The notes: generated from the letters alone by a model not told the origin. A DNA stretch of 39,901 nucleotides from Actinobacteria bacterium ADurb.Bin346 (GCA_002068775.1 MWAX01000161.1:1-39901); one strand, 5' to 3'. Shown: positions 1 to 28,682, numbered from the stretch's first letter. A program made the numbers and translations.

Positions 1-1135
1 TATAAGCTACTAATAAAGATGCTGATATTGTTATTACAGGGAAAAGTGTAGATTGCATTCCTACTCCAAGTCCTTTTATTATAACTGTTGCTGGTCCTGT
101 TGAAGCAGCTGAAACTATATCATTTACAGGTTTTTTATGTTTTTCTGTATAATATCCTGTTACAAAAGCAACTACCATTCCAGCTATTAGTCCTGCTGCT
201 ATTGCCCCAAGATATTTTAATCCCATTCCCATATAGCTTATTACTCCGTAAGCTCCAGCTATTGAAAGTATTCCTGCTATTGTTGTTGCATTATTTATTT
301 TAGAGTGTATTTTCTTTGGATTATTTGTTTTAACTGTAAATGTAGCTATTATACTTGATAATATTCCTACAACTGCAAGCATAAGCGGCAGTATTAAAAA
401 AGGATTAAATCCTTCTTTAGGTCCCAATGTAAATCCTAATGCCATTGCAGCTATTAATGATACAACATAAGATTCAAAAAGATCTGCTCCCATTCCTGCA
501 ACGTCTCCAACGTTATCTCCAACATTATCTGCTATTGTAGCAGGGTTTCTAGGATCATCTTCTGGTATTCCAGCTTCTACTTTACCAACAAGATCTGCTC
601 CAACGTCTGCAGCTTTAGTGTATATTCCTCCACCAACTCTTGCAAATAGTGCTATACATGAAGCTCCCATTCCAAATCCTTCTACTATATGTATATCTTT
701 AAATATCATATATAGTATAGTTATTCCAAGTATTCCAAGTCCAACAACAGACATTCCCATTACAGCTCCACCTGCAAATGATACATCAAGTGCTTTTGAC
801 ATTCCTGATTTTTGAGCTGCTATTGCTGTTCTTCCGTTTGCCTTTGTAGCTATTCTCATTCCGATATTTCCAGCAAGTGCCGATGTAAAAGCTCCTATAA
901 CAAATGTCAAAGCTGTCATTGGAGTTACAAATTTCCCAAGTATTACTGCTACTACCACTACAACCGCTGCAAGTATTTTATACTCTGCGCTAAGAAATGC
1001 CATTGCACCTTCTCTTATTGCTGCAGTTATTTCACTAACTCTCTCATTGTCAATTCCGAATTTTGATACTTTCATTGCGAAGTATAGTGCTGCTATTATT
1101 GCTACTACTCCTCCTGCAATTCCCATGTAAAGCAT
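1..1135 (-). CDS. hppA: Membrane-bound H+/Na+-translocating pyrophosphatase, N-terminal ~378 aa (3' end runs off the window)
   Basis: My own minus-strand translation from the ATG (rc of 1133-1135) reads MLYMGIAGGVVAIIAALYF...FARVGGGIYTKAADVGADLVGKVEAGIPEDDPRNPATIADNVGDNVGDVAGMGADLFESY. These are hallmark M-PPase motifs. A GGAGGGAG Shine-Dalgarno lies at rc 1149-1156. The gene is missing from the ORF track because it is open at the window edge. The + ORFs 88-303, 618-815 and 812-1066 are its antisense shadows. Confidence 0.93.
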   Translation of the reverse strand, partial: MLYMGIAGGVVAIIAALYFAMKVSKFGIDNERVSEITAAIREGAMAFLSAEYKILAAVVVVVAVILGKFVTPMTALTFVIGAFTSALAGNIGMRIATKANGRTAIAAQKSGMSKALDVSFAGGAVMGMSVVGLGILGITILYMIFKDIHIVEGFGMGASCIALFARVGGGIYTKAADVGADLVGKVEAGIPEDDPRNPATIADNVGDNVGDVAGMGADLFESYVVSLIAAMALGFTLGPKEGFNPFLILPLMLAVVGILSSIIATFTVKTNNPKKIHSKINNATTIAGILSIAGAYGVISYMGMGLKYLGAIAAGLIAGMVVAFVTGYYTEKHKKPVNDIVSAASTGPATVIIKGLGVGMQSTLFPVITISASLLVAY

Positions 1136-1243
1136 GTTTTCCAAAAAACTCCCTCCTCGTTAATTTTTATTAATAATAGTATCGATATCTTATCATATTT
1201 TTGATTAAAAATGAAGCATTTTATTAAATATGATTATCTCTAC

Positions 1244-1444
1244 TTATTTTTTAAAAAGATTTAAAATAACTGTAACTATAATACTGAAAATTATGCTTGT
1301 TGTAAGCGGTATATATAGTGAAAACGACTTCTTTTTTATTAAAAAATCCCCCGGCAGTTTTCCTATAAAATTTACCTTGTCAAACAAATAAAGCACTACA
1401 CCTGCAAAAAGTATTAAAGAGATGGCAAAATATGCAAAAGAAAA
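1244..1444 (-). CDS. DUF2905-family small membrane protein, with no recognisable start codon (apparently clipped at its 5' end)
   Basis: The minus-strand frame reads ..FSFAYFAISLILFAGVVLYLFDKVNFIGKLPGDFLIKKEVVFTIYIPLTTSIIFSIIVTVILNLFKK*, with the stop at rc 1244-1246. The G(K/R)LPGD..I.K...F.FP..TS core is typical of DUF2905. There is no ATG, GTG or TTG at the expected N-terminus, and the frame runs straight into the antisense of the next gene. Confidence 0.6.
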   Translation of the reverse strand, partial: FSFAYFAISLILFAGVVLYLFDKVNFIGKLPGDFLIKKKSFSLYIPLTTSIIFSIIVTVILNLFKK

Positions 1445-1844
1445 AGGAGCGCGAATAGTCTCCGTGCACGGGGAGACTATTGCTGAGAGTGTGGAGCCGG
1501 GTACAAACAGACAGGCAGTGGAATCCGGACACGTGGATCTCCTGGCTCACCCGGGGTTTTTAACGCTGGAAGAAGCCAGAATAGCAGCAGAAAATGATAT
1601 ATATATTGAAATTACCCGAAGGGAAGGCCACTGCCTTACCAACGGAGCAGTGGCAAGTGTTGCTAAAAAAGCAAATGCAAAACTGCTAGTTAACAGTGAT
1701 GCCCACAGCCATTATGACCTGTATAACCCCGGCAGGCAAAAAATCATAGCCATGGGGTCGGGCCTGTCAGAAACTGATGCAAATGATATCCTTGAAAAAA
1801 ATACTGCAATGTTTTTGTCAAAACTTGGATATCGATTATTTTAA
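1422..1844 (+). CDS. PHP-domain phosphoesterase (histidinol-phosphatase-like), C-terminal ~140 aa only; likely 5'-truncated
   Basis: AKYAKEKGARIVSVHGETIAESVEPGTNRQAVESGHVDLLAHPG...EITRREGHCLTNG...LVNSDAHS matches the C-terminal two thirds of ~215-aa PHP proteins (HGE, AHPG and DAH metal-ligand motifs). The N-terminal HxH metal-binding segment of about 80 aa is absent. Confidence 0.65.
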   Translation: MAKYAKEKGARIVSVHGETIAESVEPGTNRQAVESGHVDLLAHPGFLTLEEARIAAENDIYIEITRREGHCLTNGAVASVAKKANAKLLVNSDAHSHYDLYNPGRQKIIAMGSGLSETDANDILEKNTAMFLSKLGYRLF

Positions 1845-1882
1845 ACTTATATCATCAACAACTGCTCAACCGGAGGATTAAA

Positions 1883-2260
1883 ATGAATGAACAAATGGAT
1901 AGACAGAAACCTGAAGAAATAAAACCACAGATTGTGGGGGAGCCAGCCCCGGAGGATAAGGCAAGCGGAATGGCAATTGCGGCAATGGTGACAGGCATTG
2001 TCGGAATTGTATGCGCCTGGATAATAGGATTAAATTTTGCTTTAGGCCTGGCCGCCCTTGTACTTGGAATAATAGAGTTTAAAAGAATTCAGGAAGGCCA
2101 GTCTAACCAGAAAGGCAAAGGAATGGCGCTGACAGGAATAATACTTGGCAGCCTCACGCTTTTTGGTGCTCTCATGTACATAATTATAGCAGTGGTCAGC
2201 GCAGTCAGTTTTTCTACCTGGCTCCCTTCAATTCTGAATAATTTCAGCTCCTATTATTAA
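1883..2260 (+). CDS. DUF4190-like small membrane protein
   Basis: It has a polar N-terminus followed by two TM segments (MAIAAMVTGIVGIVCAWIIG...LAALVLGIIEFKRI... and GMALTGIILGSL), the pattern of DUF4190 proteins. A GGAGG sits 8 nt upstream of the ATG. Confidence 0.7.
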   Translation: MNEQMDRQKPEEIKPQIVGEPAPEDKASGMAIAAMVTGIVGIVCAWIIGLNFALGLAALVLGIIEFKRIQEGQSNQKGKGMALTGIILGSLTLFGALMYIIIAVVSAVSFSTWLPSILNNFSSYY

Positions 2261-2391
2261 TATATTTAATATATAAATAAACGATTTTAAAGAAGCTGAA
2301 CAGGTGGTAAGAAATAGAAAATCTATATGAGCTGCTTAAGCTTATCGGTCAGGGTGCCTGCCACCAGAAAATTGATCTTTGTTTTCAGTAC

Positions 2392-3009
2392 ATGGATTTA
2401 GTAATGCCGCTGTGTTCAAGGTGCACAGGGCTGTACACAGGTTTTATTGTTTCGTTTGCAATACTTGTGCTTGTTGAGCGCAAAAGCAGGAGAGGGCTGC
2501 CGCAGAAAAAAATAACCATTTCTCTTATAGTTTTTACTGCTCTGATGGCAGGAGAATCCACGCTCTCTTTTTTGCATTTTATTCCTACTCTAAAAATTTT
2601 CAGATTTTTAACCGGATATCTGGCAGGATGGCTCGCTGCTCCAATGATAGCAGGCTTAATGAACAATGTTGCCGTCGATATAAAACAATCTGTAAACGGA
2701 GGCTATGTCTCAAACAATAAAATAATTATAAAATGGCTGAGCCCCGCACCTTTTTTTGCTGTTCTTTTTTATTTTACATATAAAAAAGCCCTGATATTCT
2801 GGAGCATATTTTCTCTTGCAGGGATGGCTTTTTTTATTGCATCAATGATTTTTATTCTCATCTTTTCTACAGGTGGAAGGCTCTCAAATTCGGTGAGCAG
2901 ACCAGGCAGGTATATATTATTTTTTTTCCTGTCTTTAATTATATCTGTAATTTTAATAATGGCATCTTCATGGCTTAAAATACTGATAAGGCAGTATTTG
3001 CAATTTTAA
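2392..3009 (+). CDS. DUF2085-family membrane protein (true start probably upstream of the first ATG)
   Basis: CSRCTGLYTGF is the DUF2085 signature (CxRCxGxY), followed by multiple TM segments. The in-frame upstream sequence (2311-2391) encodes ..LIGQGACHQKIDLCFQY, which contains the family's CHQ motif but has no ATG, GTG or TTG. Confidence 0.7.
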   Translation: MDLVMPLCSRCTGLYTGFIVSFAILVLVERKSRRGLPQKKITISLIVFTALMAGESTLSFLHFIPTLKIFRFLTGYLAGWLAAPMIAGLMNNVAVDIKQSVNGGYVSNNKIIIKWLSPAPFFAVLFYFTYKKALIFWSIFSLAGMAFFIASMIFILIFSTGGRLSNSVSRPGRYILFFFLSLIISVILIMASSWLKILIRQYLQF

Positions 3010-3061
3010 CTTTTACTGCAACAATGTTATGATTTTAAAAAATAAATAAAGGTTTGAAGAG

Positions 3062-4378
3062 ATGGATAAAATATTATATATAGACTGCTTTTCAGGCATT
3101 AGCGGCGATATGATGGTCGGGGCATTTCTTGACATGCAATATAAAGGAATAGACCTTGAATTCTTTCAAAATGCACTCTACGGATTGGAAGTAAAAGGTT
3201 ATTCAATAAACGCATGCAAAAAAATGCGGGGGTCCATCATGGCTACTAAATTTAATGTCATTGTTGAAGAGCAGCAGCCACCCAGAAATTTTGAAGCAAT
3301 TAAGTGCCTGGTTTCAGGTGCCAGGCTGGAGGATGAAGTTAAAAAAACAGTAATTAAAATGTTTTCCATAATTGCAGAAGCTGAAGCAAAAATTCATGGC
3401 ACGAAACTTCAAAAAGTGCATTTCCATGAAGTTGGCGCTGTCGATTCAATTGTGGATATTGTTTGTGTTGCGCTGGCAATCAATAAACTGTCTCCCCGCG
3501 CAATCTACAGCAGAAGCATCCCTCTTGGAAGTGGAAAGGTAAACACAATGCACGGTGTGATTCCCGTACCGGCTCCTGCAACTGTTGAGATATTGACGGG
3601 GTTGCCTGTTTATGGCGGAGGATTTGATTATGAAGTCACGACTCCAACCGGAGCAGCTATTATTAAAACACTTGCAGATTATTTTGAAGACATACCTGAA
3701 ATGACAATAGAGTCAGTAGGAAATGGTGCGGGAGCGGCTATGAATACAAATCACCTGGAGCACCGGGAGCAGCATGAGCAGCAGGGACACCGGGGGCAAC
3801 AAGGGCAAAATAAGCATCAAAATCACCTGGAGCACCGGGAAAATTTAAAACATCCTGCAAATAGCGGTAAAAAAGAAGAACAGACCCTGCCTCCTGACAT
3901 ACTGAGGCTTATTGTTGGTACGACAACTGCTAAAAAATCTGAAGATAAGGTTTTACTTATTTCAACAAACATAGATGATGCAGCACCAGAAATAATAGGA
4001 CATGTGCAGGAAATGCTTTTATCTTATGGAGCTCTGGACTGCTGGACAGAGCCTGTATTCATGAAAAAAAACAGATTAGCATCCAAATTATGTGTCCTTT
4101 GTAAAAATGAAAATATCGACGATGTCATGAAGCTGATATTTACAGGCACATCTTCATTGGGCGTAAGAGTACAGGAAATATCAAGGTATTGTCTTGACAG
4201 GGCTATAAAGAAAGTGAAACTGCCTTATGGTGAAGCCGATGTTAAAATCGGATACTTCAGGGGAAAACAGGTCACTGTTTCACCGGAGTACGAATCATGC
4301 AGGATTCTTGCTGAGTGTACCGGCAAGCCCCTGAAGGAGGTTTACCGTGATCTTATCCTCTTTTTTTCGAGTAAATAA
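3062..4378 (+). CDS. larC: Nickel-pincer cofactor biosynthesis protein LarC (DUF111, nickel insertion)
   Basis: The N-terminus MDKILYIDCFSGISGDMMVGAFLD is the LarC/DUF111 signature, and HFHEVGAVDSIVDIV is also present. A His/Gln-rich internal linker lies between the N- and C-terminal domains. Confidence 0.88.
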   Translation: MDKILYIDCFSGISGDMMVGAFLDMQYKGIDLEFFQNALYGLEVKGYSINACKKMRGSIMATKFNVIVEEQQPPRNFEAIKCLVSGARLEDEVKKTVIKMFSIIAEAEAKIHGTKLQKVHFHEVGAVDSIVDIVCVALAINKLSPRAIYSRSIPLGSGKVNTMHGVIPVPAPATVEILTGLPVYGGGFDYEVTTPTGAAIIKTLADYFEDIPEMTIESVGNGAGAAMNTNHLEHREQHEQQGHRGQQGQNKHQNHLEHRENLKHPANSGKKEEQTLPPDILRLIVGTTTAKKSEDKVLLISTNIDDAAPEIIGHVQEMLLSYGALDCWTEPVFMKKNRLASKLCVLCKNENIDDVMKLIFTGTSSLGVRVQEISRYCLDRAIKKVKLPYGEADVKIGYFRGKQVTVSPEYESCRILAECTGKPLKEVYRDLILFFSSK

Positions 4379-5448
4379 TATTTGAGTATGGATTGTAAAA
4401 TAGCTGTTGTCGGCACTGCAAGAAGCAAACCAATCGGCCCAAGGAATGCACCGCTTGCAATAAGGACAAGAATCACAATAGCAGGATGTACTCCTACCTG
4501 AAACTTCATCACGTTCGGGCTGATGATATAATTATCCAGCTGCTGAACAGCCACAAAAAGCAGCACCACAAGCAGAGCTTTTAAGGGTGAAATAAAAAAA
4601 GCAGCGAGAGCTGCAGGCACTGCCCCCAGGATTGGCCCAAGAAATGGAATAAGGTTCAAAGCTCCGGCAATAAAACCGAGAAGTACAGCAAAATCCACTT
4701 TTAAAAGGAATAATATAAGAGTGCATAGAAACCCCACTATTATTGAGATGAGTATCTGTCCCCTTATATAACGGCCGCTGACAATATTTATTCTGTCTAT
4801 TATCACATTTGCCGTATTTTTATATTTTTGAGGAAGTGCTTTTATAAAAAGCTCGCGCATTTTCCATGAGTCTTTAAGAATATAAATGCCAAGAAGGGGC
4901 CCTATTATGAAAGTTATAATTATATTGATAATAGACCTTGTAAATGCTGTCACGCTCTGTAAAAATGAAGAGCCTCCTCTGCCAATAGCATCAGCAATAT
5001 ACTGGTATACAAGAGTTGCATCAAACGGAAGGAACTCTTTTCCAAGCATATTTTCAATATTGTTAACTATGATACTTTTATTCATATACTGGTTTAGATT
5101 GTCTGTGAGGTTTGTGATGTAATCAGGAAGCTTTGAAATGAAAACAGTAAACTGATTAGCAACCATCGGTATTGTAAAAAAGAAAAAAGTGAAGAAAAAC
5201 CCCGTAAATATAATATATGCAATAAATATCGCTAAGCCCCTTTTCATTTTCCGGGAAAGCCAGCTTACAAGAGGCGTGAGCAGGTAAGCGATACCTGTAG
5301 CCACAATCAATGGAAAAATTGCTATTCTTATCCTGTATAAGAGATAGAAGCCCAGAGAGACCAGCACAAGAAGACCAATTATTGACCAGCAATATATACC
5401 AACTTTTTTTATTCCCTCTGTATTTTTTAAGGGTTTTTTTATTCTCAT
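4342..5448 (-). CDS. AI-2E family transporter (PerM/YdiK-like permease)
   Basis: This is a 368-aa polytopic membrane protein with the C-terminal pattern GALNLIPFLGPILGAVPAALAAF...QQLDNYIISPNVM typical of the AI-2E/UPF0118 family. Confidence 0.85.
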   Translation of the reverse strand: MRIKKPLKNTEGIKKVGIYCWSIIGLLVLVSLGFYLLYRIRIAIFPLIVATGIAYLLTPLVSWLSRKMKRGLAIFIAYIIFTGFFFTFFFFTIPMVANQFTVFISKLPDYITNLTDNLNQYMNKSIIVNNIENMLGKEFLPFDATLVYQYIADAIGRGGSSFLQSVTAFTRSIINIIITFIIGPLLGIYILKDSWKMRELFIKALPQKYKNTANVIIDRINIVSGRYIRGQILISIIVGFLCTLILFLLKVDFAVLLGFIAGALNLIPFLGPILGAVPAALAAFFISPLKALLVVLLFVAVQQLDNYIISPNVMKFQVGVHPAIVILVLIASGAFLGPIGLLLAVPTTAILQSILKYYLLEKKRIRSR

Positions 5449-5640
5449 ATATTACCAGAAATATTTTTTTAAATTATATAAACATTTCCATTATATGACA
5501 ACAATTTGTATTTTACTGTGAATGCAATATATATAGACGCATTTTAATTGAAGTAGTATGCCAATTGTGATAAAGTTTTTATTCAAAATAAATGGACACT
5601 ATAAAAATTACTTTCAGTACAGGCAGAGTAAAAGGATAAT

Positions 5641-6054
5641 ATGCCCGAGGAATCAATAAATATTTTTATCAGTAATATTTATGCAATAGCAATCTTTACC
5701 GGATTATTTGCAGCAATATTTCTTTGCCTGTTTTTTATTTCAAGAGTTCTAATTTTCAGGACCAGGAGATCAGCGCAGAGCCGCAGAGAAGAGAAAACAG
5801 CTCTCGATGCCGGAGACCAAAAACATGCCGGGACAATGTTAATTATAAGGAAAGACATTTACTTTAAAAAGAATCTGCTTGTTGCCGGTTTATTATTTAT
5901 ATTTACAGCATTGTTTATTATCCTTATTTTGCTCTCATTTCTATTTGCCACACAATTTCGTATGGACGGCAGTTTTTATATGATTTTTGCAATAATATTT
6001 ATAATCCTTGTAATGACTGTTTATATAGTCAGGTCAAAATTACTTGAAAGATAA
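5641..6054 (+). CDS. Three-TM membrane protein, putative NuoA-like subunit of the complex-I-like cluster
   Basis: It is the first gene of the cluster and lies 14 nt upstream of the NuoB-like gene. It is 137 aa, with TM1, a charged loop, then TM2 and TM3, which is NuoA-like topology. The canonical YECG and FD.E motifs are not recognisable. AAAGGA RBS. Confidence 0.45.
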   Translation: MPEESINIFISNIYAIAIFTGLFAAIFLCLFFISRVLIFRTRRSAQSRREEKTALDAGDQKHAGTMLIIRKDIYFKKNLLVAGLLFIFTALFIILILLSFLFATQFRMDGSFYMIFAIIFIILVMTVYIVRSKLLER

Positions 6055-6068
6055 TATTTTCTAAATCT

Positions 6069-6467
6069 ATGAGGTCACTTGTAAAAAATAATCTTAATAT
6101 TATTGTTGCGGGCTTTGGTTGCTGTAAGCAGGAAATACTGGCAACAACCGGCCCAACTTATGATATATCAAGATTTGGAGTTAATTTTGTCAGTGTCCCG
6201 GAAGAAGCAGATGTTCTTGTCATACAGGGATTCTACAATGAAATCGGGGAAGAAAGACTGCTTGAGATTTACAGCAGGATGAAAAAACCCAAATGGGTGA
6301 TAGCAACCGGCAAGTGCATAGTGGACAGATGTCTTCTTAATGAAGACTATAATTTTACTGAAAGGCTTGGGAAAATAATTAATGTTGATTTTTATGTACC
6401 CGGCTGCCCTCCCAGGCCAGAGGCTTTTATTTATGCAGTTCTGAGACTGCTTGAGGCAGGACAGTAA
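6069..6467 (+). CDS. nuoB: NuoB / hydrogenase small-subunit-like [4Fe-4S] protein
   Basis: The motifs GFGCCKQE...YDISRFGV...EADVLVIQG...KPKWVIATGKC...VDFYVPGCPPRPEAFIYAV parallel the NuoB/EchC/MbhJ pattern (GxxCC, YDxxRFG, PKWVIxxGxC, PGCPPRPEA). All four cluster-N2-type Cys are present. Confidence 0.85.
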   Translation: MRSLVKNNLNIIVAGFGCCKQEILATTGPTYDISRFGVNFVSVPEEADVLVIQGFYNEIGEERLLEIYSRMKKPKWVIATGKCIVDRCLLNEDYNFTERLGKIINVDFYVPGCPPRPEAFIYAVLRLLEAGQ

Positions 6468-6556
6468 TACATGCATAAACTGACAGAAAAAGATGTTATT
6501 TTTAAGATATCATTTTTAATTTTCTGCTTAAAAAATTGAGAACGGATAAATAAAAA

Positions 6557-8071
6557 TTGGCTAAAGAATTATATGACGGGATATATTCTTCTCATAAGAC
6601 AGTATTTATTGAAAAGATTGAAAAGAACCTGGGCTTTTATCTAAAAGACCATATCCTTGAGATAAAAAAACTTGGACAGGAATTACTTTGCGCTATCAGG
6701 CTTTCGGATCTGGACGATGTTTGCCAGGAACTTAATAAAAATCCGGAATTTGATATTAATATCTTAAACTCCGTAAGCCATTATAAAAGCAGAAATAAGC
6801 ATTGTCTTTTAATAGATCTTTCATCTGTCAGCAATAATTTCTCTATGCTGCTCAAAGTGGTTATGCCGCTGCCGGGAGATGCAGAAACCAGTCAGATTAT
6901 GCAGTTATTTGAATCCTCAATATCAGTATTAAAAAAGACATTTGAGGCTGCAGAGTTTTTCTCTGAGAGGAAAAACCTGCAGGAAGACAGCAGCGATATT
7001 ATAATTCAGGCACAGCAAATAGACGGACTGGACTGTTTTGATTTATATCTCTCGACAGAAGAGGACATGATAAAAAAAGCGTTTATAGATACAGGCATTG
7101 CAAGAGTTTCATCAAAAGAACTCCACAAAAACACTGTTTTACCTGATGTTCTTTCATGCATAAGCCGCTATGACCATTCTGCCGGTCTTTTTCCGGAACT
7201 GTGCATATGCCTTTCTTTTGAAGAATTGATGCAGCTGAAAGTGCCCAGGAGGGTGCAATATATAAGAATGCTTTTAAGTGAGCTTTACAGAGTTTCCAGC
7301 CATCTATACTTTGTATCACGAATTGCAAAAATCATTGGAGCAGAACTTGTATATAATCTTGTATTGCTTGAAAGAGAAAGAGCCTTAAGGCTGATAGAGC
7401 TTATTACCGGCTCGCGAATAAGCCCTAACTTCATAAGGATCGGCGGAGTAAAAAATGACCTTAATGCAGATAAGATAAAAGCAGCCAGAGAAACAATTGA
7501 AATACTTTACAGAAAGGTACGCAATATAGAAGCGCTTCTTCTTGATAACTCAGTAATATCCGCAAAGTTAAAAAACAGAGGTTCAGTCGATAGAGAAACT
7601 GCATTACTTTGCGGTGTCACAGGACCGAACCTCAGGGCCTGTGGCGCAAGATATGATATAAGAAAAAACCGGAACCTGCTTTTATATAAGGACATGTCTT
7701 TTATAATTGCTCTGGGAAAATACGGCGACTGTCTGGATAGAGTTCTGGTAAGGTTCAGGGAGATATACCAGTCAATAAAAATCATAGACCAGGCAGTTAA
7801 TGACCTGCCCGAGGAGCACATAAAAAAACTTATAAATCTTTCAGACCTGGCAATTCCTTTTACTGAAATGATATCCAGTGTTGAATGTCCGCACGGCGTA
7901 TTTAAAATATTTATGGAAATACAAGATGAATTAATACAGAATATTATTGTGCTCAGCCCCTCAAAAAACAGCGTCTATCTTGCAGAAAGAATACTGCCGG
8001 ACTCAAGATTTGAGGATGTCGAGCTTATTCTAGCAAGTCTTGATATAAACAGCGGTGAGCTAATATCCTGA
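6557..8071 (+). CDS. nuoCD: Fused NuoC-NuoD-like subunit (30-kDa plus 49-kDa / hydrogenase large-subunit fold), without NiFe cysteines
   Basis: The C-terminal ~330 aa carry NuoD-like blocks: RRVQYIRMLLSELYRVSSHL, RERALRLIELITGSRISPNFIRIGGVKNDL, GPNLRACGARYDIRKN...GKYGDCLDRVLVRFREIYQSIKII, ECPHGVF and the terminal ASLDINSGELIS. The N-terminal ~165 aa look NuoC-like (..FEAAEFFSERKNL). TTG start. Confidence 0.8.
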   Translation: MAKELYDGIYSSHKTVFIEKIEKNLGFYLKDHILEIKKLGQELLCAIRLSDLDDVCQELNKNPEFDINILNSVSHYKSRNKHCLLIDLSSVSNNFSMLLKVVMPLPGDAETSQIMQLFESSISVLKKTFEAAEFFSERKNLQEDSSDIIIQAQQIDGLDCFDLYLSTEEDMIKKAFIDTGIARVSSKELHKNTVLPDVLSCISRYDHSAGLFPELCICLSFEELMQLKVPRRVQYIRMLLSELYRVSSHLYFVSRIAKIIGAELVYNLVLLERERALRLIELITGSRISPNFIRIGGVKNDLNADKIKAARETIEILYRKVRNIEALLLDNSVISAKLKNRGSVDRETALLCGVTGPNLRACGARYDIRKNRNLLLYKDMSFIIALGKYGDCLDRVLVRFREIYQSIKIIDQAVNDLPEEHIKKLINLSDLAIPFTEMISSVECPHGVFKIFMEIQDELIQNIIVLSPSKNSVYLAERILPDSRFEDVELILASLDINSGELIS

Positions 8072-8151
8072 AAAGTGCTTAAAAATATTAAAAATATAAA
8101 ATCGTGACATTGGTCACCAGGTTGTAAAAAAATTATTAAATATGTGTAATT

Positions 8152-9087
8152 ATGCTTATTATATTTAAAAAAGTCATATACATATACCTGATACTTGGGC
8201 TGAATATTTATTTCTGTTCCTATTTTTTAAGCAAAATCTCTGCAAGGACTGAGCTGCGCAGAGGATATGTGGCTGCCAGGGCAGGCGGTTTTGGACGTCC
8301 CTTTGCCAGCATATTCAAGTATATGTCCAAGGAGCACAGATTAAGCGTCTGGGAAATGCTGCTGTTCTTTTTTTCATTCTTTATATGGACTGTAATACCA
8401 TTTTCGCAATCATTGATAATTATCAAATTTGATTTTGATATCATAGCTGTCATATTATTTTACCTTGTGCTTGTTTTTCTAATAATAATAAATGCCTGCA
8501 GCAGCTCATACGGCTTCATATATAATAATTTTTCCAGAAAAATCCTGATGATGTTCACATTCTTTATACCGCTGTTGTTCTGTATTGCAAGCATTGTACT
8601 TATCAGCAGGACTCTAAACCTAAAAGAGATCGTGGGCTCGCAATATCAGTACTGGAACATAATATTCCAGCCGCTCGGTTTTATAGCAGCAGTAACATCA
8701 GTTGTTATGCAGCTTAAGATGCTTGGCCTTACAGGAAAAAACCCTATTCTTTACTCTGAAACAGCAGAAAAAGAAGGGGCAGGTTTTGGCAGGCTTGTTA
8801 ACAGGACAGCAGAATATTCAATAATGTTTTTTCTGATCGTGATTATTGTACTGCTCTATCTTGCCGGCTGGGAAAGATTTTTCCTTATTAATGGAAATGT
8901 GATGTTTGGAATTAAATTCTATGTAGTTTTCTTCTTATTATTGTTTATTGATAAGGCAACGCCGAAGCTTAACGATTTTTATTATCTGAAAAGCGTAAAC
9001 TTCAAGTTTGTGATACCCATCTCAGTTATCAATTTTTTGCTGACTATGGTATTTTTTATTCTGAGAAATATATATAATCTGATTTGA
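8152..9087 (+). CDS. nuoH: NuoH-like polytopic membrane subunit (very divergent)
   Basis: It is 311 aa with about 8 TM segments, placed between the NuoD-like and NuoI-like genes as in nuo operons. The N-terminal loop SARTELRRGYVAARAGGFGRPFASIFKYMSKE echoes the NuoH ERK..A..Q.R.GP...G..Q..AD..K...KE region. Confidence 0.55.
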   Translation: MLIIFKKVIYIYLILGLNIYFCSYFLSKISARTELRRGYVAARAGGFGRPFASIFKYMSKEHRLSVWEMLLFFFSFFIWTVIPFSQSLIIIKFDFDIIAVILFYLVLVFLIIINACSSSYGFIYNNFSRKILMMFTFFIPLLFCIASIVLISRTLNLKEIVGSQYQYWNIIFQPLGFIAAVTSVVMQLKMLGLTGKNPILYSETAEKEGAGFGRLVNRTAEYSIMFFLIVIIVLLYLAGWERFFLINGNVMFGIKFYVVFFLLLFIDKATPKLNDFYYLKSVNFKFVIPISVINFLLTMVFFILRNIYNLI

Positions 9088-9116
9088 TTTTTTAATTGAC
9101 AGGTGGTTTTAGCTAT

Positions 9117-9548
9117 ATGAGACCGGTAATAAGAGATTTTTTTATAGAGTTTGGCAATATGTTCCGTAAGCCCAGGACTGTTGTATATCCAAAAGAAAAA
9201 ATAATAATCCCGGATGGAAGCAGGGGCATACCAAGGCTCAAGCTTGACCTGGATTCTCTGGAAGTGCTCTGCAATGGTTGTGGAGACTGTGCAAAAGCCT
9301 GTTCCGCCAGATGCATTAAAATAAAAAGAGGCATAGATGAAAACGGCAGGGAATTTTTAGAAGAGTTTAACATAGATCTTAACAGTTGTATTTTTTGCGG
9401 CAATTGTGTTGAGGTTTGTGAAAGGAAAGCAATTGAAATGACATACAGGCACCAGCTTGCCGATCAGGACAGAAACTCCTTCAAAATGGAAAAACAGGAT
9501 TTAATAAAACAGGCGGATTATTCAATAAGGGATTTTTGGACAAAATAA
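9117..9548 (+). CDS. nuoI: NuoI-like 2x[4Fe-4S] ferredoxin subunit
   Basis: There are two CxxCxxCxxxC motifs (CNGCGDCAKAC and CIFCGNCVEVC) and an N-terminal ..FRKPRTVVYPKEK.. resembling NuoI (T..YPEE). I prefer the ATG at 9117 (AGGTGG 10 nt upstream) over the track's TTG at 9096. Confidence 0.8.
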   Translation: MRPVIRDFFIEFGNMFRKPRTVVYPKEKIIIPDGSRGIPRLKLDLDSLEVLCNGCGDCAKACSARCIKIKRGIDENGREFLEEFNIDLNSCIFCGNCVEVCERKAIEMTYRHQLADQDRNSFKMEKQDLIKQADYSIRDFWTK

Positions 9549-10117
9549 TGGATGGCAAATTAATTTTAGGATTCCTGAATTACTTAATGCTCAGTCTCAT
9601 TTTTATTTTTGGACTGATTTCTCTGGCTGTAAAAGACCAGAAGAAGAAGCTCTCTTTTCTTTTCTTCATGCTTTTTTGCTCAGGTATATTGAGCTACCTT
9701 TTCTTTGCTAAAATAGCCTTTATGCTGCCTGGAATAATGCTGCTGTTTTTTTGTCTTTCAGTTTTAATTATGGTTGCCGGTCAGGAATATTTTGGTTATG
9801 GCAAACCACTGATCAAAGCCGGGAAAGAAGTTATGCCGGAAAGGCATAGCAGAGGCTGGTTTAATCCGGGAGTTATCATTAATCTTCTCTTATCTTTAAT
9901 ATTATGCATTGGTGCAGGAGTTTTATTTTATTATTTTAACAGAGATTTTTACCAGGACCTTGTACTGGTAGATACTTTTAAAGTCGCAGAAATGCAGCAG
10001 ATCGTAAATAATATAGGGTTAAATTATATGGCAGCAATCCTGATTATTTTTTGCGGGCTTGCCTCTTCATTTTTCTGGTTTTTGTGCATACTGGATAAAA
10101 AAGGTGATAAAAGTTGA
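9536..10117 (+). CDS. nuoJ: NuoJ-like membrane subunit
   Basis: It is a 193-aa protein with about 5 TM segments lying between the NuoI-like and NuoK-like genes. Its start overlaps the upstream stop (TTG at 9536, or ATG at 9548 in a TAATG overlap). The call rests on position, size and topology only. Confidence 0.5.
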   Translation: MDKIMDGKLILGFLNYLMLSLIFIFGLISLAVKDQKKKLSFLFFMLFCSGILSYLFFAKIAFMLPGIMLLFFCLSVLIMVAGQEYFGYGKPLIKAGKEVMPERHSRGWFNPGVIINLLLSLILCIGAGVLFYYFNRDFYQDLVLVDTFKVAEMQQIVNNIGLNYMAAILIIFCGLASSFFWFLCILDKKGDKS

Positions 10118-10464
10118 ACCTCCAATTCATAATACTATTCAGTTTTGCCATATTTTTACTTGGAATATTCGGGCTGACTTTTTACAGAAGCCTTTTATCT
10201 GTGCTGATCTCTTTTCAGCTTATAATTTTTTCAGCAACAATCAATTTTTTCGGGTTCTCATTATTTCTTTATAAGGCAATGACATGGGACAAGATATTTA
10301 TATTTTTTGCTTTTATCTCAATATATCTCGTGCTGTTCTCGATAGTATTTTATAATTATTCGATACAGACTGGAATCTATGAGCTTGATGTAAAAAATGA
10401 CTTCAGGTTTTTCAGATTCAGCAAGTCCGACTGGTGGGGAGAAGATAAAATTGGAGAAGATTAA
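10114..10464 (+). CDS. nuoK: NuoK-like 3-TM membrane subunit (both canonical membrane Glu apparently absent)
   Basis: MNLQFIILFSFAIFLLGIFGLTFYRSLLSVLISFQLIIFSATINFF parallels the NuoK pattern (..GL.G...RRN.L..L...E.M.NA.NL). The TTG start overlaps the NuoJ-like stop (GTTGA), with an AAGGTGA RBS. Confidence 0.6.
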   Translation: MNLQFIILFSFAIFLLGIFGLTFYRSLLSVLISFQLIIFSATINFFGFSLFLYKAMTWDKIFIFFAFISIYLVLFSIVFYNYSIQTGIYELDVKNDFRFFRFSKSDWWGEDKIGED

Positions 10465-12073
10465 AGCCCTGCTTGACAGCATATACCCGTTCTATCCTGT
10501 ATTATTTATACTGGGTTCCGGCATAATCACTGTATTTTTTGGCATGTCCGGCAGGAAACCAGTTAAGTTATTTATAATAATACTCACTGCATGCTCAATA
10601 GCTGCAGGTATTTTTATAAATATATATTCTTATAACCTGAAAGGAGAATTTTCAAATTTTCTTTTTAATTTCAGCGGCCTTCAGGTTGCACTCACATCCA
10701 TGGTTTTATTTTCTGCTTTAAACGCACTGCTGTTTTTATGCTTGTTTAATTTTAGAAAAGATAATTTGATAAAAATAATCCTTATGTTTGATTTATGTAT
10801 TTTATCCTTTATTTTTTTCATTCCATCTGTAAATTTTATAGTGATGTTTTCAAGCCTGACGTTTTTTATAACAGGTGTTTTTCAGCTTGTAACATCCTTA
10901 AACAGAGGTGTCTTTTTAAGTTCAATGCCCGAGTATACAATAAAAAACAATATTATAAGGTTTTTTCTGTTATCTGCATTATCTTTGCTATTAATGTTCC
11001 TGGGATTTTCCCTTCTTTTTGGAGCCACAGATTTAAAAACCTTCAGCCAGGTGCTCGAATCAGATTTTAAAAACACCTCTCTTATTAAAACAGGGTTTTT
11101 CATTATCCTGCTGAGCGCATTTTTATTTTCAGGGTTTGTACCGCTGCACAGTCCTTATATGAAAATGCAGAAAAGGATTGAGAAGTCCTCAACAAGCATA
11201 ATATGGCTTTTATATATTTTAGCGGGAATAATTTTGCTTTTAAAATTAAAAGATATCTTTTTCTTTTTTCTTGACAGTGATAATAAATACATAATAATTG
11301 CACTCCTTGTGGTTTCAGCAGCTTGTGTTTTTGCCGGAAATCTTGGAGCTCTTAAAACTACGAGCATAAGAAGGATCTTTTCATTTTTTGTACTTTCAAT
11401 CCTGGGAACTTCAGTCCTCGGTTTTGTGCAGTATGGGCTCGGATTGTTTGACGGGACAACTGTTTTAAAATATATAATTTCGAACTGTATACTTCTTGGT
11501 GTGACTTATATGCCGCTGATGCTGGTATTTTACTCACTTGAAACAAATGGTGACGACTCTCTTGAAAGACTAAGAGGGTTTGGCAAAAGAAATATTTATC
11601 TTTCCATTAACATGGTCATTATCATGCTTTCATTAAGCGGGCTTCCGGGTACCTATGGTTATCTTTCAAGGATGTCTTTATTATCTGTATTCCTGAGCGA
11701 TTATCGTACAATTATTGACCAGTCGGGCGGGAACTTTATCTCAGGGCTGAAAATTTCAAACATGCTGGTCGCCTTTATTTCATGGGCTTTTATTGCAGCA
11801 AACATCATAAGGCTGATCGTTGTGATTTATGGCAAAGAAATCACAAAAAAGGACATATATGCAACGGATTTACAATCCCGGGAAGTTATAGAAAACTCCG
11901 GCACTGTAAAAAGTAAAACTGTGCAGGGAAGTGCTTTTATACCTGTTTTCATTTATATTTATGTGACAATCTTCACCCTGCTGATAGTACTTACAGGAGT
12001 TGCGGGGCTACTGGAGATTCTCGGATTAAAAACATTATTTAGCGGATTCAGCATTTTAAGCCTGAATTTTTAA
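10451..12073 (+). CDS. Antiporter-like subunit (NuoL/M/N / Mrp-type, Proton_antipo_M-like), the only one in the cluster
   Basis: It is about 540 aa with about 14 TM segments. Motif remnants are FSGFVPLHSPYM (cf. FK...PFH.W.PD.Y), GALKTTSIRRIFSFFVLS (cf. A..Q...KR.LAYSSI) and SLSGLPGTYGYLSR (cf. SLAG.PP..GF.GK). The track ORF starts at 10397 inside nuoK. The TTG at 10451 (GGGGAG 8 nt upstream) is more plausible, but the start is uncertain. Confidence 0.65.
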   Translation: MEKIKALLDSIYPFYPVLFILGSGIITVFFGMSGRKPVKLFIIILTACSIAAGIFINIYSYNLKGEFSNFLFNFSGLQVALTSMVLFSALNALLFLCLFNFRKDNLIKIILMFDLCILSFIFFIPSVNFIVMFSSLTFFITGVFQLVTSLNRGVFLSSMPEYTIKNNIIRFFLLSALSLLLMFLGFSLLFGATDLKTFSQVLESDFKNTSLIKTGFFIILLSAFLFSGFVPLHSPYMKMQKRIEKSSTSIIWLLYILAGIILLLKLKDIFFFFLDSDNKYIIIALLVVSAACVFAGNLGALKTTSIRRIFSFFVLSILGTSVLGFVQYGLGLFDGTTVLKYIISNCILLGVTYMPLMLVFYSLETNGDDSLERLRGFGKRNIYLSINMVIIMLSLSGLPGTYGYLSRMSLLSVFLSDYRTIIDQSGGNFISGLKISNMLVAFISWAFIAANIIRLIVVIYGKEITKKDIYATDLQSREVIENSGTVKSKTVQGSAFIPVFIYIYVTIFTLLIVLTGVAGLLEILGLKTLFSGFSILSLNF

Positions 12074-26632: not shown

Positions 26633-27820
26633 ATGAAAAAAAAGTTTAGTTCAGGTATTGCCATAATATTTTTAATAGCGGCAGCATTGCTTGTATTTTC
26701 AGGCCTGCCGGGCTGCAGCAATTATGCGCAGACCATAATCACAATGTCCACTGCTATTGAAAGCACGACGGCAACAACAATGGTGCCGGCTGCCCCGGCA
26801 ACAGAAGAGACGGCACAGGAAGAAAAGATTCCTGCAAATTTTGAACTTGTATACATTCCGAAAATCGATGTGCCATGGTTTGATGTTGTGCAGAAAGGCA
26901 TAGAGCAGTGTGCCAGAGATTATGGTTTTAAAGTCACTGTTACGGCGCCTCCAAAACTGGACCCTGCAATACAGGCACAGATTGTCCTTGACCTTATAGG
27001 AAAAACTGCCGATGCAGTGATTGTGTGCCCGATAGAGGAGGCTTCCATGGATATTGCACTGCAGAAAGCCAGCTCTGCAGGAATAATGACATTTGGAAGC
27101 GAGGGCTCAAACCTTAAGAATATAAGTTATGATTTTGAGTCGATTTCCAATGAATCTTTTGGGCAGGCAATAATGCAGTCAGCCATAAAATACTCCGGAA
27201 ACAGCGGAAGTTATGCTGTTTCTGTTGGATTTTTGTCATCGGCTGCTCAAAATGAATGGGCAGATGCTGAAATAGCGCTCCAGAAACAATCAGCGCCCGG
27301 GATGGTAAATATTCTCGGATATTCTAAAGGCACCGACAGATTTGAAGATAATGAAGACCAGGCGATTGCTTTAACAAAAATAACTGAAATTATTACTGCT
27401 AATCCAGACCTGAAACTGATAGTGGGTAACTCAATGACAAGCGGGCCTGCTGCGGGGGAGGCAATAAAAAAACAGAAATTGAAAGGCAAGTTATTTTATG
27501 TGGGCACAGGCCTTCCGCTGACTGCTGGTGGTTACATTAAAGACAATATTATCCAGGAAGCTTTTTTCTGGGATCCATATCTGACAGGCTACTCGCTGGG
27601 ATTCATGGCTTTTAAGGCCTGGGAAGGCAAACCGCTCATAAAGGGCGATGCGGTGACTCTGCCCGGCGGAGCAAAACTTGCAGGGTATGAAACACTCACA
27701 GAAGGAACCGGCACTGCAGGAGCAAAAGTGATTTATGGAAATGCTGCAGTATCTGTAAATAAGGAAAACATGGATAGCTGGTATAAAAAATTTGAAGAGT
27801 ATGGCTGGCCTCAATTTTAA
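26633..27820 (+). CDS. Lipoprotein, periplasmic-binding-protein type I (sugar / AI-2-type ABC substrate-binding protein), orphan
   Basis: It has a signal peptide with a lipobox (LLVFSGLPGC), a Thr/Ala-rich linker, and then ..VYIPKIDVPWFDVVQKGIEQCARDYGFKV......ADAVIVCP.. typical of the Peripla_BP_4/LsrB/RbsB-like fold. No permease or ATPase gene is adjacent. Confidence 0.75.
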   Translation: MKKKFSSGIAIIFLIAAALLVFSGLPGCSNYAQTIITMSTAIESTTATTMVPAAPATEETAQEEKIPANFELVYIPKIDVPWFDVVQKGIEQCARDYGFKVTVTAPPKLDPAIQAQIVLDLIGKTADAVIVCPIEEASMDIALQKASSAGIMTFGSEGSNLKNISYDFESISNESFGQAIMQSAIKYSGNSGSYAVSVGFLSSAAQNEWADAEIALQKQSAPGMVNILGYSKGTDRFEDNEDQAIALTKITEIITANPDLKLIVGNSMTSGPAAGEAIKKQKLKGKLFYVGTGLPLTAGGYIKDNIIQEAFFWDPYLTGYSLGFMAFKAWEGKPLIKGDAVTLPGGAKLAGYETLTEGTGTAGAKVIYGNAAVSVNKENMDSWYKKFEEYGWPQF

Positions 27821-28682
27821 TACTGTAAAAGGCTATATTGCCATAACTAAACTAAAACTTGTTGCACTGCTTTTTTTCACCGGTTTTACAAGTGTGCTGA
27901 TTGCATCCACCATATACGGGTTTGACTGGGCAGAGATATCCATGATATCAGTTGCAATAATACTAAGTGTTATGGGCTCCAATGCAACAACTGCTTATAT
28001 TGATCGTGAAATGGATAAAATAATGAACAGGACCAGCGCAAGGCCTGTTCCCTCCGGAACTATAAATCCTCCTGTTAATGCCCTGATATTCGGAATAGCT
28101 CTTGTCATTGCAGGCATAATACTGGCTGCATTTACAAGCTACTATGCAGCAGTGTTCATTTTTCTTGGTTTTATTGACAGTGCAATTATATACAATGCAT
28201 TATTAAAAAAACGCTCTCCCATGAATATATTGTACGGCTCTCCAGCAGGCGGGATGCCTGTACTTGCCGGATGGATAGCAGTTTCCAATACAAGGCTAAA
28301 CCTTATTGCAATACTTATGTTTTTGCTTGTAATAATCTGGACCCCGATGCACATATGGAGCCTTGCATATTTTTACAGCGACGACTATAAAAAGGCAGGT
28401 GTGCCCATGCTGACTTCAATATGGTCGCCGCGCAGAGCATTTTTATTGATCGGAGGACTGAATATCCTGCTTGTGTTTTTATCTGTATTTATAGGCGCGC
28501 TCTTTAAATTAAGCATGTTATATGTAATTATCTCTGCTGCACTTGGCGCAGTCGTCCTGGCTCTTAGCATCATCCTTATAATAAATAATAAAAAAAGAAC
28601 AGCATGGGCTTTATTTAAATTCTCAAGTCCTTATCTTGCAGTAATTTTTTTACTTCTGCTTGCGGAGTATTTATGGATTTAA
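27792..28682 (+). CDS. ctaB: UbiA-superfamily prenyltransferase, closest in motif to protoheme IX farnesyltransferase (heme O synthase)
   Basis: ..YIAITKLKLVALL......NATTAYIDREMDKIMNRTSARPVPSG.. matches the CyoE/CtaB signature (N.YIDRD.D..M.RT..RP.P.G). It has about 9 TM segments and later reads WTPMHIWSLA..Y.DDY..AGVPML. It overlaps the SBP gene by 29 nt. Confidence 0.75.
   Translation: MKSMAGLNFNTVKGYIAITKLKLVALLFFTGFTSVLIASTIYGFDWAEISMISVAIILSVMGSNATTAYIDREMDKIMNRTSARPVPSGTINPPVNALIFGIALVIAGIILAAFTSYYAAVFIFLGFIDSAIIYNALLKKRSPMNILYGSPAGGMPVLAGWIAVSNTRLNLIAILMFLLVIIWTPMHIWSLAYFYSDDYKKAGVPMLTSIWSPRRAFLLIGGLNILLVFLSVFIGALFKLSMLYVIISAALGAVVLALSIILIINNKKRTAWALFKFSSPYLAVIFLLLLAEYLWI

What the first reader, a model, noticed from the sequence alone, without database searches (positions are those of the whole stretch)
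6557..8071. NuoCD-like catalytic subunit lacks both hydrogenase NiFe cysteines and, apparently, the canonical quinone-site His/Tyr
**C-terminus**
- It reads ASLDINSGELIS.
- NiFe hydrogenases have DPCxxCxxR here and NuoD has D(I/V)VxGExDR, so there is no C-terminal CxxC.

**N-terminal NiFe motif position**
- The position equivalent to the hydrogenase RxCGxC motif (R.DY in NuoD, which carries the quinone-binding Tyr) appears to read SRYDHS. That puts a His where the Tyr or Cys would be.

**GPQHP..HG segment**
- This NuoD segment carries the quinone-site His. By my by-eye alignment it corresponds to QAQQIDGLDC, with no His.

**Partner subunit**
- The partner NuoB-like protein keeps all four Cys for the N2-type cluster.

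**Interpretation**
- Electrons probably reach an N2-like cluster, but the substrate pocket matches neither the hydrogenase nor the canonical quinone reductase configuration.
Basis: partly seen in the sequence, partly recalled or inferred. Interest (0 to 1): 0.6.

Follow-up and report, generated by a model that had tools for sequence, protein, structure and literature searches.

The report
Remodelled catalytic subunit, complex-I paralogue
This gene encodes the catalytic subunit of a stripped-down relative of respiratory complex I, found only in one uncultured class of Actinomycetota, whose substrate pocket has neither the hydrogenase metal ligands nor the usual quinone-binding His/Tyr/Asp, but is conserved and re-tooled rather than decayed.

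Summary
HMMER against PDB chains, MAFFT L-INS-i and hhalign give the same register:
- The four NiFe cysteine positions read D206, A209, N498 and E501.
- The Tyr87 position is His207.
- The His38 position is Leu158.
- The C-terminus is a NuoD-type LDIxxGE without the final DR.
- NuoB keeps its four N2-type Cys and NuoI its eight.

Family context changes the reading:
- The gene belongs to a class-wide clade (Humimicrobiia) defined by an 'ECPHG' motif. In it the canopy Lys/Arg of complex I and hydrogenases is His446.
- The canopy Asp and the His-Glu-Arg proton path are kept.
- The β1–β2 loop carries conserved Asp residues, not His.
- Position 207 varies among 100 relatives: Tyr 53, Trp 37, His 2. 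Tyr→His arose about three times. Trp marks one 27-genome clade in which no MenA or MqnA was found, yet the gene is still under purifying selection.
- Some relatives also carry a canonical 11-subunit Nuo, so this is a paralogue.

Best reading: a functional, probably non-pumping, ferredoxin-fed reductase with a re-tooled pocket. Here the acceptor is probably menaquinone (MenA/B/C present), but family-wide it is not necessarily a quinone. I class it as a new variant of a known kind (Ehr-, Fpo- or Mbx-like 'ligand-less' NuoD homologues).

The parts
6557..8071 (+). Fused NuoC-NuoD-like catalytic subunit (504 aa, 'ECPHG-type')
   Evidence: Pfam and NCBIfam hits, PDB profile hits, AF2 model plus Foldseek match to E. 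coli NuoCD and HycE.
6557..6991 (+). N-terminal NuoC-like domain (residues 1-145). No Pfam hit; recognised by fold only.
   Evidence: Full-length Foldseek match to fused NuoCD and HycE chains, TMq 0.82-0.83. Secondary structure.
7007..7042 (+). β1–β2 loop QAQQIDGLDCFD. Leu158 is at the His38 position and Asp159 at the HycE Glu193 position.
   Evidence: In the family G157 is 100%, D159 99%, D162 98%, and His never occurs.
7163..7186 (+). SRYDHSAG. Arg204 and Asp206 are at the first NiFe Cys position, His207 at the Tyr87 position and Ala209 at the second Cys position.
   Evidence: Position 207 across 100 relatives: Y53, W37, F4, P3, H2, S1.
7298..7303 (+). Canopy Ser248 and proton-path His249 (equivalent to HycE S283/H284)
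   Evidence: mapping. H249 is invariant.
7883..7897 (+). 'ECPHG' motif. His446 replaces the canopy Arg/Lys (HycE R478, Yarrowia K407). Cys444 is specific to the family.
   Evidence: Present in 100/100 representatives and in the sister families f2 and f3.
8039..8068 (+). C-terminus LDINSGELIS. Canopy Asp496 is kept; Asn498 and Glu501 sit at the two C-terminal NiFe Cys positions. There is no CxxC and no terminal DR.
6069..6467 (+). Short NuoB-like subunit (132 aa) with four N2-type Cys (C18, C19, C83, C113). It lacks the N-terminal helix, the W-P loop and the GG of GxCxxxGG.
8152..9087 (+). NuoH-like subunit that has lost the PFDxxEAExEL/EYSG loop motif kept even by HycD
9117..9548 (+). NuoI-like 2x[4Fe-4S] subunit with 8 Cys. 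The ORF as listed starts at 9096; relatives start at the Met at 9117.
5641..6054 (+). Putative NuoA-like membrane subunit (position and conservation only)
   Evidence: Conserved position in the operon across relatives. No family hit.
9536..10464 (+). NuoJ-like (by position) and NuoK-like subunits
10397..12073 (+). Single antiporter-like subunit lacking the TM5 Glu, TM7 Lys, TM8 Lys and TM12 Lys
   Evidence: Agrees with earlier finding e1-3770377.

Best explanation
The gene encodes the NuoC-NuoD fusion subunit of a Humimicrobiia-specific paralogue of complex I. The operon is A-B-CD-H-I-J-K plus one antiporter-like subunit, with no NuoEFG.

Proposed electron path. This route is inferred from cysteine conservation.
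- Electrons come from a low-potential donor, most likely ferredoxin. The genome has PFOR and Rnf.
- They pass through the two NuoI clusters to an N2-type cluster in NuoB.
- They reach a pocket in NuoCD that has been re-tooled rather than lost.

State of the pocket. The residue states below are shown by alignment.
- The NiFe cysteines are gone.
- The complex-I proton donors His38 and Asp139 are gone.
- The canopy Asp496, Ser248/His249, Glu402 and Arg360 proton path is intact.
- The canopy Lys/Arg is an invariant His446, next to an invariant Cys444.
- The β1–β2 loop carries conserved Asp residues where hydrogenases carry their proton-relay Glu.
- Position 207 holds an H-bonding aromatic residue.

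Proposed mechanism. The proton-donor roles are inferred. I propose that the His446-Asp496 dyad and residue 207 (His here) protonate a substrate that is reduced by N2.

Acceptor and coupling. In this organism the acceptor is most likely menaquinone. Coupling to ion pumping is probably lost.
For: Register and residue mapping:
- Three alignment methods agree on the register.
- Residue mapping to HycE reproduces the published numbering (PMC9474812).

The gene is functional, not decaying:
- ECPHG is present in 100/100 representatives, and D159, D162, H249, R360 and D496 are conserved.
- dN/dS is 0.2-0.25 in close pairs, and dN 0.14 against a saturated dS versus the nearest relative.
- The fused form is in 53/53 genomes of the family, with a conserved operon.
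- NuoB and NuoI cysteines are conserved.

Support for a quinone here:
- The MenB, MenA and MenC matches are above the NCBIfam cut-offs, and a fourth ORF in the same cluster looks like MenE but was not scanned against a family library.
- Every genome with Tyr or His at 207 lies in the part of the tree where MenA occurs.
- PFOR and Rnf are present.

Paralogy:
- A canonical Nuo A-N operon co-occurs in G047, G031 and G038.
- The ECPHG clade is monophyletic with 98/93 support.
Against: - The complex is kept, under purifying selection, in a 27-genome clade (80-98% complete) where neither MenA nor MqnA was found. Quinone therefore cannot be the universal acceptor.
- Sister families have Ala, Thr, Ser or Asn at position 207.
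- NuoH and NuoB have lost loops that line the quinone tunnel in complex I.
- No 3D coordinates were available, so the proximity of His446, Cys444 and His207 to N2 rests on homology with published structures.
- One lineage (g6) has ECPDG and lacks D206 and D496.
- The donor is inferred only from the absence of an input module.
Confidence: 0.5

Rival explanations
1. The complex reduces a non-quinone substrate throughout the clade, for example a sulfane or disulfide compound or another small molecule. The invariant Cys444 and His446 next to the N2-type cluster would form the catalytic site. Menaquinone synthesis in this genome would serve other enzymes.
For: - The complex is retained with dN/dS of about 0.2 in 27 genomes without MenA or MqnA.
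- Position 207 is not conserved across the ECPHG clade (A, T, S, N, Y, W, H) while ECPHG is.
- Quinone-tunnel elements of NuoH and NuoB are lost.
- The best single-sequence PDB hit is MbsL of the P. furiosus sulfane reductase MBS.
- Some genomes also have a canonical Nuo for quinone reduction.
Against: - The family profile scores higher against NdhH and the 49-kDa subunit than against MbsL.
- The tree places the clade next to NuoD.
- Tyr or His at 207 is kept exactly in the lineages where MenA occurs.
- No candidate substrate-handling gene is in the operon.
- The orientation of Cys444 is unknown.
Confidence: 0.3
2. The complex no longer catalyses substrate reduction. It would be a membrane-anchored Fe-S scaffold with a structural, sensing or assembly role, and the pocket changes would reflect relaxed constraint.
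For: - Pump residues, the NuoH coupling loop, His38, Asp139, the N2-tuning His (position 289 is variable) and, in some lineages, Arg204 are lost.
- Earlier finding e1-3770377 reached a 'no pumping' conclusion.
Against: - The pocket-lining canopy and proton-path residues and ECPHG are the most conserved parts of the protein.
- All 12 Fe-S cysteines are kept.
- Purifying selection acts on the gene.
Confidence: 0.12
3. It is an ordinary quinone-reducing NuoD, and the missing His and Tyr are an alignment artefact.
For: The overall fold and many NuoD core motifs are conserved: RxD, ELxRIxxH, RIGGV and GPNLRA.
Against: - HMMER, MAFFT and hhalign give the same ungapped register.
- There is no His anywhere in residues 145-170.
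- Canonical NuoDs from the same class align with GPHHPSTHG, RLDY and EGTKGE in the same columns.
- The NCBIfam NuoD score of 232 is below the cut-off of 360.
Confidence: 0.03

Closest known systems
NuoD / NuoCD of 11-subunit (NuoEFG-less) complex I, such as the canonical Nuo A-N found in sister genomes and NDH-1 NdhH
   Same: - Same fold. The NuoC-D fusion is as in E. coli and Aquifex.
- Same partner set: B, H, I, A, J, K and N.
- Asp and Glu sit at former NiFe positions.
- Shared residues: canopy Asp, the His-Glu-Arg proton path and the C-terminal LDIxxGE.
- The best profile hits are NdhH and the 49-kDa subunit.
- The clade is sister to NuoD in the tree.
   Different: - No GPxHPxxHG loop, so no His38, and no Asp139.
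- Canopy Lys/Arg is replaced by His in ECPHG.
- Tyr87 is variable and is His here.
- No terminal DR.
- It has only one antiporter-like subunit, without pump residues.
- NuoH and NuoB loops are lost.
- It scores below the NCBIfam NuoD cut-off.
FpoD of F420H2:methanophenazine oxidoreductase (Fpo)
   Same: The residue pattern is 'Tyr87 present, His38 and Asp139 absent, Asp401 present', as described for Fpo (PMC4758237). This matches most members of the present family.
   Different: - This family is bacterial.
- The FpoD model scores 177 bits against a cut-off of 600.
- No FpoF or FpoO is present.
- It has a single antiporter subunit.
- The ECPHG motif is present.
[quoted passage not shown]
   Same: Large subunit without NiFe ligands, small membrane arm, function unknown (PMC12342949, PMC4378227, PMC4758237).
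   Different: - Ehr is described as similar to group-4 hydrogenases, whereas this clade scores and branches with NuoD.
- No Ehr reference sequence could be compared here.
MbsL of the P. furiosus membrane-bound sulfane reductase (MBS/Mbx, PDB 6U8Y)
   Same: It is the best single-sequence PDB match, at 4.8e-40. It has no complete NiFe site, no His38/Tyr87 pair, and a ferredoxin-fed non-quinone chemistry.
   Different: - The operon has no Mrp-type module.
- MbsL keeps a Cys in RIC, which is Asp here.
- The family profile prefers NdhH and the 49-kDa subunit.
HycE, the group-4 [NiFe] hydrogenase large subunit
   Same: - Same fold, with an N-terminal NuoC-like domain (TM 0.83).
- An acidic residue in the β1–β2 loop sits at the Glu193 position.
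- The canopy Asp and the H284/E437/R395 path are conserved.
   Different: All four NiFe cysteines are absent, the canopy Arg is His, and it is the lowest-scoring PDB relative.

Membership tests
[NiFe] hydrogenase large subunit (group 4) | N-terminal RxCGxCxxxH and C-terminal DPCxxCxx(H/R) nickel-iron ligands | tested here: not met
   The four Cys positions read D206, A209, N498 and E501. No family member has CxxC at either site.
Canonical quinone-reducing NuoD / 49-kDa subunit | β1–β2 loop GPxHPxxHG with the quinone-ligating His (Tth His38) and its partner Asp139 | tested here: not met
   Leu158 is at the His38 position, with 0 His in 100 relatives. Ile is at the Asp139 position.
Canonical quinone-reducing NuoD / 49-kDa subunit | Tyr87 (RxDY) next to cluster N2 | tested here: not met
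   It is His207 in this protein. Across the family the counts are Tyr 53, Trp 37, His 2 and other 8.
Canonical quinone-reducing NuoD / 49-kDa subunit | Curated family score (NCBIfam NuoD equivalogs) | tested here: not met
   PRK06075 scores 231.9 bits against a cut-off of 360. TIGR01962 scores 201.7 against 459.
Complex I superfamily Q-module (NuoB-NuoD-NuoI-NuoH core) | NuoD fold, adjacent NuoB with 4 Cys, NuoI with 8 Cys, NuoH-like anchor, conserved canopy Asp and His-Glu-Arg path | tested here: met
Fpo (FpoD) | FpoD family score; archaeal Fpo operon with FpoF/FpoO and three antiporter subunits | tested here: not met
   The FpoD model scores 176.8 bits against a cut-off of 600. The operon has one antiporter-like subunit.
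Ehr complexes | Group-4-hydrogenase-like large subunit lacking NiFe ligands | tested here: inconclusive
   Lack of ligands is met. The 'hydrogenase-like' part is not supported, because the clade is nearer NuoD by score and by tree. No Ehr reference sequences were available.
MBS/Mbx | MbsL-type subunit within a 13-subunit complex that has an Mrp-like module | tested here: not met
   The operon has only 8 genes and no Mrp module adjacent. An Mrp-like pair lies on another contig, and any link to it is unknown.

The most novel reading that the evidence does not exclude
The ECPHG clade may be a new catalytic type within the complex I superfamily. It would be a ferredoxin-fed, non-pumping membrane reductase whose substrate is not a quinone. 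The invariant Cys444/His446 canopy pair, together with Asp496 and the acidic β1–β2 loop, would be the active site. This would explain why the complex is kept in genomes without menaquinone synthesis and alongside a canonical Nuo.
Probability: 0.2. Interest if true: 0.8.

Novelty: new variant of a known kind. Interest (0 to 1): 0.55.

Why it matters
Complex I, Fpo, NDH-1, MBS and the group-4 hydrogenases differ mainly in what happens in the pocket beside the last Fe-S cluster. Each natural variant of that pocket helps show which residues are needed for which chemistry.

This clade offers a natural series: canonical Nuo, then family f2, then f3, then f1. Along it the quinone ligands, the coupling loop and the pump residues are lost step by step. 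The canopy and proton path are kept, and the canopy base is changed to His.

It also gives a natural experiment at the Tyr87 position. Tyr or His occurs where menaquinone is made, and Trp where it is not.

If the acceptor turns out not to be a quinone, this would add a new reaction to the superfamily. If it is menaquinone, it would show that the His38/Asp139 pair is dispensable for quinone reduction when pumping is not required.

Tried and rejected
- The first literature search for 'Ehr' was swamped by electronic-health-record papers. A refined search gave usable sources.
- The AF2 model could only be summarised and fold-searched. No coordinates reached the Python box. Distances between His446, Cys444, His207 and the cluster, and the cavity, could therefore not be measured.
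- I asked whether C216/C218 together with C444/H446 could form a metal site. I rejected this as unsupported. C216 and C218 lie at i and i+2 in a predicted helix, and C218 also occurs in canonical NuoDs.
- I asked whether the upstream LarC (nickel-insertion protein) is functionally linked. It is syntenic only within family f1, alongside unrelated genes, and it is not next to the f2 or f3 operons. I treat it as conserved gene order only.
- I tested Trp207 against absence of MenA as co-evolution. Both map to a single branch (1 change), so the link is descriptive and not statistical.
- I rejected the idea that this is the organism's only degenerate complex I. Close relatives carry a canonical Nuo as well.

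Full report
**What is there.** The ORF at 6557-8071 (+) encodes a 504-aa protein. It lies inside an eight-gene operon with these members:
- a putative NuoA (5641-6054)
- a short NuoB (6069-6467)
- this NuoCD
- NuoH (8152-9087)
- NuoI (9117-9548)
- a NuoJ-like ORF
- NuoK
- one antiporter-like subunit (10397-12073)

There is no NuoEFG. Pfam recognises only the 49-kDa (NuoD) domain in residues 261-498. NCBIfam NuoD models score 202-232 bits, well below their cut-offs of 360-459. An AlphaFold2 model built on 100 relatives is confident (pLDDT 89.6, pTM 0.91). It superposes over its whole length on the fused NuoCD of E. coli and Aquifex, and on HycE (TMq 0.80-0.83). Residues 1-145 are therefore a NuoC-like domain that sequence models miss.

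**Checking the four observations.** Three independent alignment methods give one register. They are HMMER of the protein and of a family profile against PDB chains, MAFFT L-INS-i with E. coli NuoCD, HycE and canonical NuoDs, and hhalign against E. coli NuoCD.

Mapping through E. coli HycE reproduces the residue numbers used in the FHL structure paper (PMC9474812). The mapping is as follows:

| Role | HycE residue(s) | This protein |
|---|---|---|
| NiFe ligands | C241, C244, C531, C534 | D206, A209, N498, E501 |
| β1–β2 proton donors | D192, E193 | L158, D159 |
| Canopy | S283, R478, D529 | S248, H446, D496 |
| Proton path | H284, E437, R395 | H249, E402, R360 |

- His207 lies at the Tyr87 (Thermus) position, in SRYDHSAG against RWDY, RLDY or RIEY.
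- Leu158 lies at the His38 position, in QAQQIDGLDCFD against GPNHPSAHGAFR.
- The C-terminus LDINSGELIS is a NuoD-type LD(I/V)xxGE(V)DR lacking the last two residues.
- NuoB has Cys at all four N2 positions (C18, C19, C83, C113) and NuoI has two full CxxCxxCxxxC motifs.

**Family context.**
- A search of 5.8 billion proteins found more than 120 clusters of roughly 500-aa homologues at 39-77% identity. All come from uncultured Actinomycetota.
- A genome scan names the source lineages as Candidatus Humimicrobiales, Humimicrobiaceae and Hydromicrobium.
- The operon and its flanks are syntenic in all 24 loci examined: LarC, an AI-2E transporter on the other strand, then the operon, then DUF1287.
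- Within the class, the fused form is in 53 of 53 genomes of the window's family. Two sister families carry an unfused version of 348-376 aa.
- In a tree rooted on group-4 hydrogenases these forms make one clade (98/93 support). Family f2 branches first, then f3, then a long stem of 1.27 substitutions per site leads to the fused family. Canonical NuoDs, including those of the same class, form the sister group.
- G047, G031 and G038 also carry a complete canonical NuoA-N operon, and G031 a group-4 hydrogenase as well. The gene is therefore a paralogue and not the lineage's degenerate complex I.
- In f2 the variant operon sits directly downstream of canonical nuoL-M-N. That arrangement is what a tandem duplication would leave. 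This is an inference.

**What is conserved in the pocket.** Counts are over 100 representatives:
- The His38 position is Leu (66) or Phe (27), and never His.
- The loop keeps G157 (100), D159 (99), D162 (98) and D156 or E156 (94).
- Position 207 is Tyr 53, Trp 37, Phe 4, Pro 3, His 2 and Ser 1.
- E443-C444-P445-H446-G447 is invariant.
- D206, H249, R360 and D496 are invariant, and E402 is nearly so.

ECPHG is also present in f2 and f3, where position 207 is Ala, Thr, Ser or Asn. Canonical NuoDs of the same class read EGTKGE in those columns.

According to PMC9474812, the residue replaced by His446 is the 'canopy' Arg of hydrogenases and the Lys of most complex I. With the strictly conserved canopy Asp it ends a conserved proton pathway. 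Mutating either residue to a non-protonatable one impairs quinone reduction. The proton-delivery machinery is thus retained, with a different and still protonatable head group. The complex-I-specific His38/Asp139 pair is absent.

Exceptions exist. Genus g6 reads ECPDG and lacks D206 and D496, and g10 lacks D496.

**Selection.** Close pairs give dN/dS of 0.20-0.25, including pairs inside the Trp-type clade and inside f3. The window against its nearest relative gives dN 0.14 with a saturated dS. The gene is maintained by selection.

**Rest of the complex.**
- NuoH lacks the PFDxxEAExEL...EYSG loop that even HycD keeps. The loss is graded from f2 through f3 to f1.
- NuoB lacks the N-terminal helix, the W-P loop and the GG motif.
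- The single antiporter-like subunit lacks the TM5 Glu and the TM7, TM8 and TM12 Lys.

This agrees with an earlier follow-up in this scan, e1-3770377, which concluded that the membrane arm does not pump. I re-checked NuoH and the antiporter subunit myself.

**Is the acceptor a quinone?**
- The window's genome (1.26 Mb, 73% complete) has a men cluster. The MenB, MenA and MenC matches are above the NCBIfam cut-offs, and a fourth ORF in the cluster looks like MenE but was not scanned against a family library.
- It also has PFOR, Rnf and one soluble-type NiFe hydrogenase. I found no heme-copper or bd oxidase.
- Across 61 class genomes, MenA is above cut-off in only 20, and MqnA gives strong (futalosine-type) matches only in the two f2 genomes.
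- All 27 genomes of genera g2, g3 and g5 (80-98% complete) lack both. These are exactly the genomes with Trp207.
- On the protein tree this is one clade and one Tyr→Trp change. The association is one event and carries no statistical weight.
- His207 arose about three times: G000 with G050, G024, and G052 with G060. All three lie in the part of the tree where MenA occurs.

I read this as follows. Where menaquinone is made, an H-bond-donating Tyr or His is kept beside N2, which is compatible with quinone reduction. The complex as such does not need a quinone, because it persists under selection without one.

**Comparison with known systems.**
- NuoD homologues lacking NiFe ligands and quinone ligands are a known category. 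Fpo has Tyr87 but not His38 or Asp139. Sulfolobus, Nautiliales and Desulfurobacteriales NuoD lack His38 and Tyr87 (PMC4758237).
- Ehr complexes lack NiFe ligands and have no known function (PMC12342949, PMC4378227).
- A search of 1.84 billion representatives also shows many unfused NuoD homologues without the His loop. They read ESPRG or ESPKG and end in SLDxxxSE(V/I)DR. They lie just beyond this clade.
- Features I did not find in the papers searched and read here are the ECPHG signature, the acidic β1–β2 loop, the combination with a membrane arm stripped of pump residues, and persistence without quinone synthesis.

I therefore class it as a new variant of a known kind.

**Limits.**
- No model coordinates, no multimer model and no expression data were available.
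- The donor (ferredoxin) and the acceptor are inferences.
- No Ehr, Mbx or Fpo sequences were in the tree.

Noticed in passing
window 3062-4378 (+): A LarC-type nickel-insertion protein (Pfam Ni_insertion, 421 bits) lies upstream of the operon. An AI-2E transporter on the opposite strand sits between them. This order is conserved in about 20 of 24 family loci, but no LarC match was found in the stretches fetched around the f2 and f3 operons.
   Followed up: partly
window 27792-28682 (+): A heme O synthase (CyoE/CtaB, 240 bits against a cut-off of 210) is present, although no heme-copper oxidase or cytochrome bd was found in this genome. The genome is only 73% complete.
   Followed up: partly
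G000 contig C97:1999-7774: A menaquinone cluster: the MenB, MenA and MenC matches are all above NCBIfam cut-offs, and a fourth ORF (6320-7774) looks like MenE but was not scanned. MenA is patchy across the class (20 of 61 genomes).
   Followed up: yes
L094 (G001:C27) 2-10567 and L095 (G001:C26): In sister family f2 the ECPHG-type operon (B-C-D-H-I-K-N') follows directly after canonical nuoL-M-N. The start of a canonical nuoA-H operon is at the end of another contig. The layout looks like a tandem duplication.
   Followed up: partly
Class genomes G014, G033, G041 (genus g6); L147-L149: This lineage reads ECPDG instead of ECPHG. It has NILSY instead of RxDY (no Asp206) and SFCIES instead of SLDIS (canopy Asp replaced by Cys). 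This is a second remodelling of the same pocket.
   Followed up: no
L006-L013, L024: about 4440-7150 in locus coordinates: About 2.7 kb lies between the AI-2E gene and the NuoA-like gene in the Trp-type genera, and it is absent from the window. I did not examine its content.
   Followed up: no
G000 contig C20:1666-4201: Two adjacent MrpA/D- or NuoL/M-like antiporter subunits sit on a 4.2-kb contig, separate from the operon. Whether they associate with the complex is unknown.
   Followed up: partly
window 10397-10464: The listed start of the antiporter-like ORF overlaps nuoK by 68 nt. Relatives are about 495-500 aa, so the true start is probably further downstream.
   Followed up: no
P0131-P0199: A large, diverse set of unfused NuoD homologues in public data lacks the GPxHPxxHG loop and often the Tyr. 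They have ESPRG or ESPKG and a C-terminus SLDxxxSE(V/I)DR. Their taxonomy and operons were not examined.
   Followed up: no
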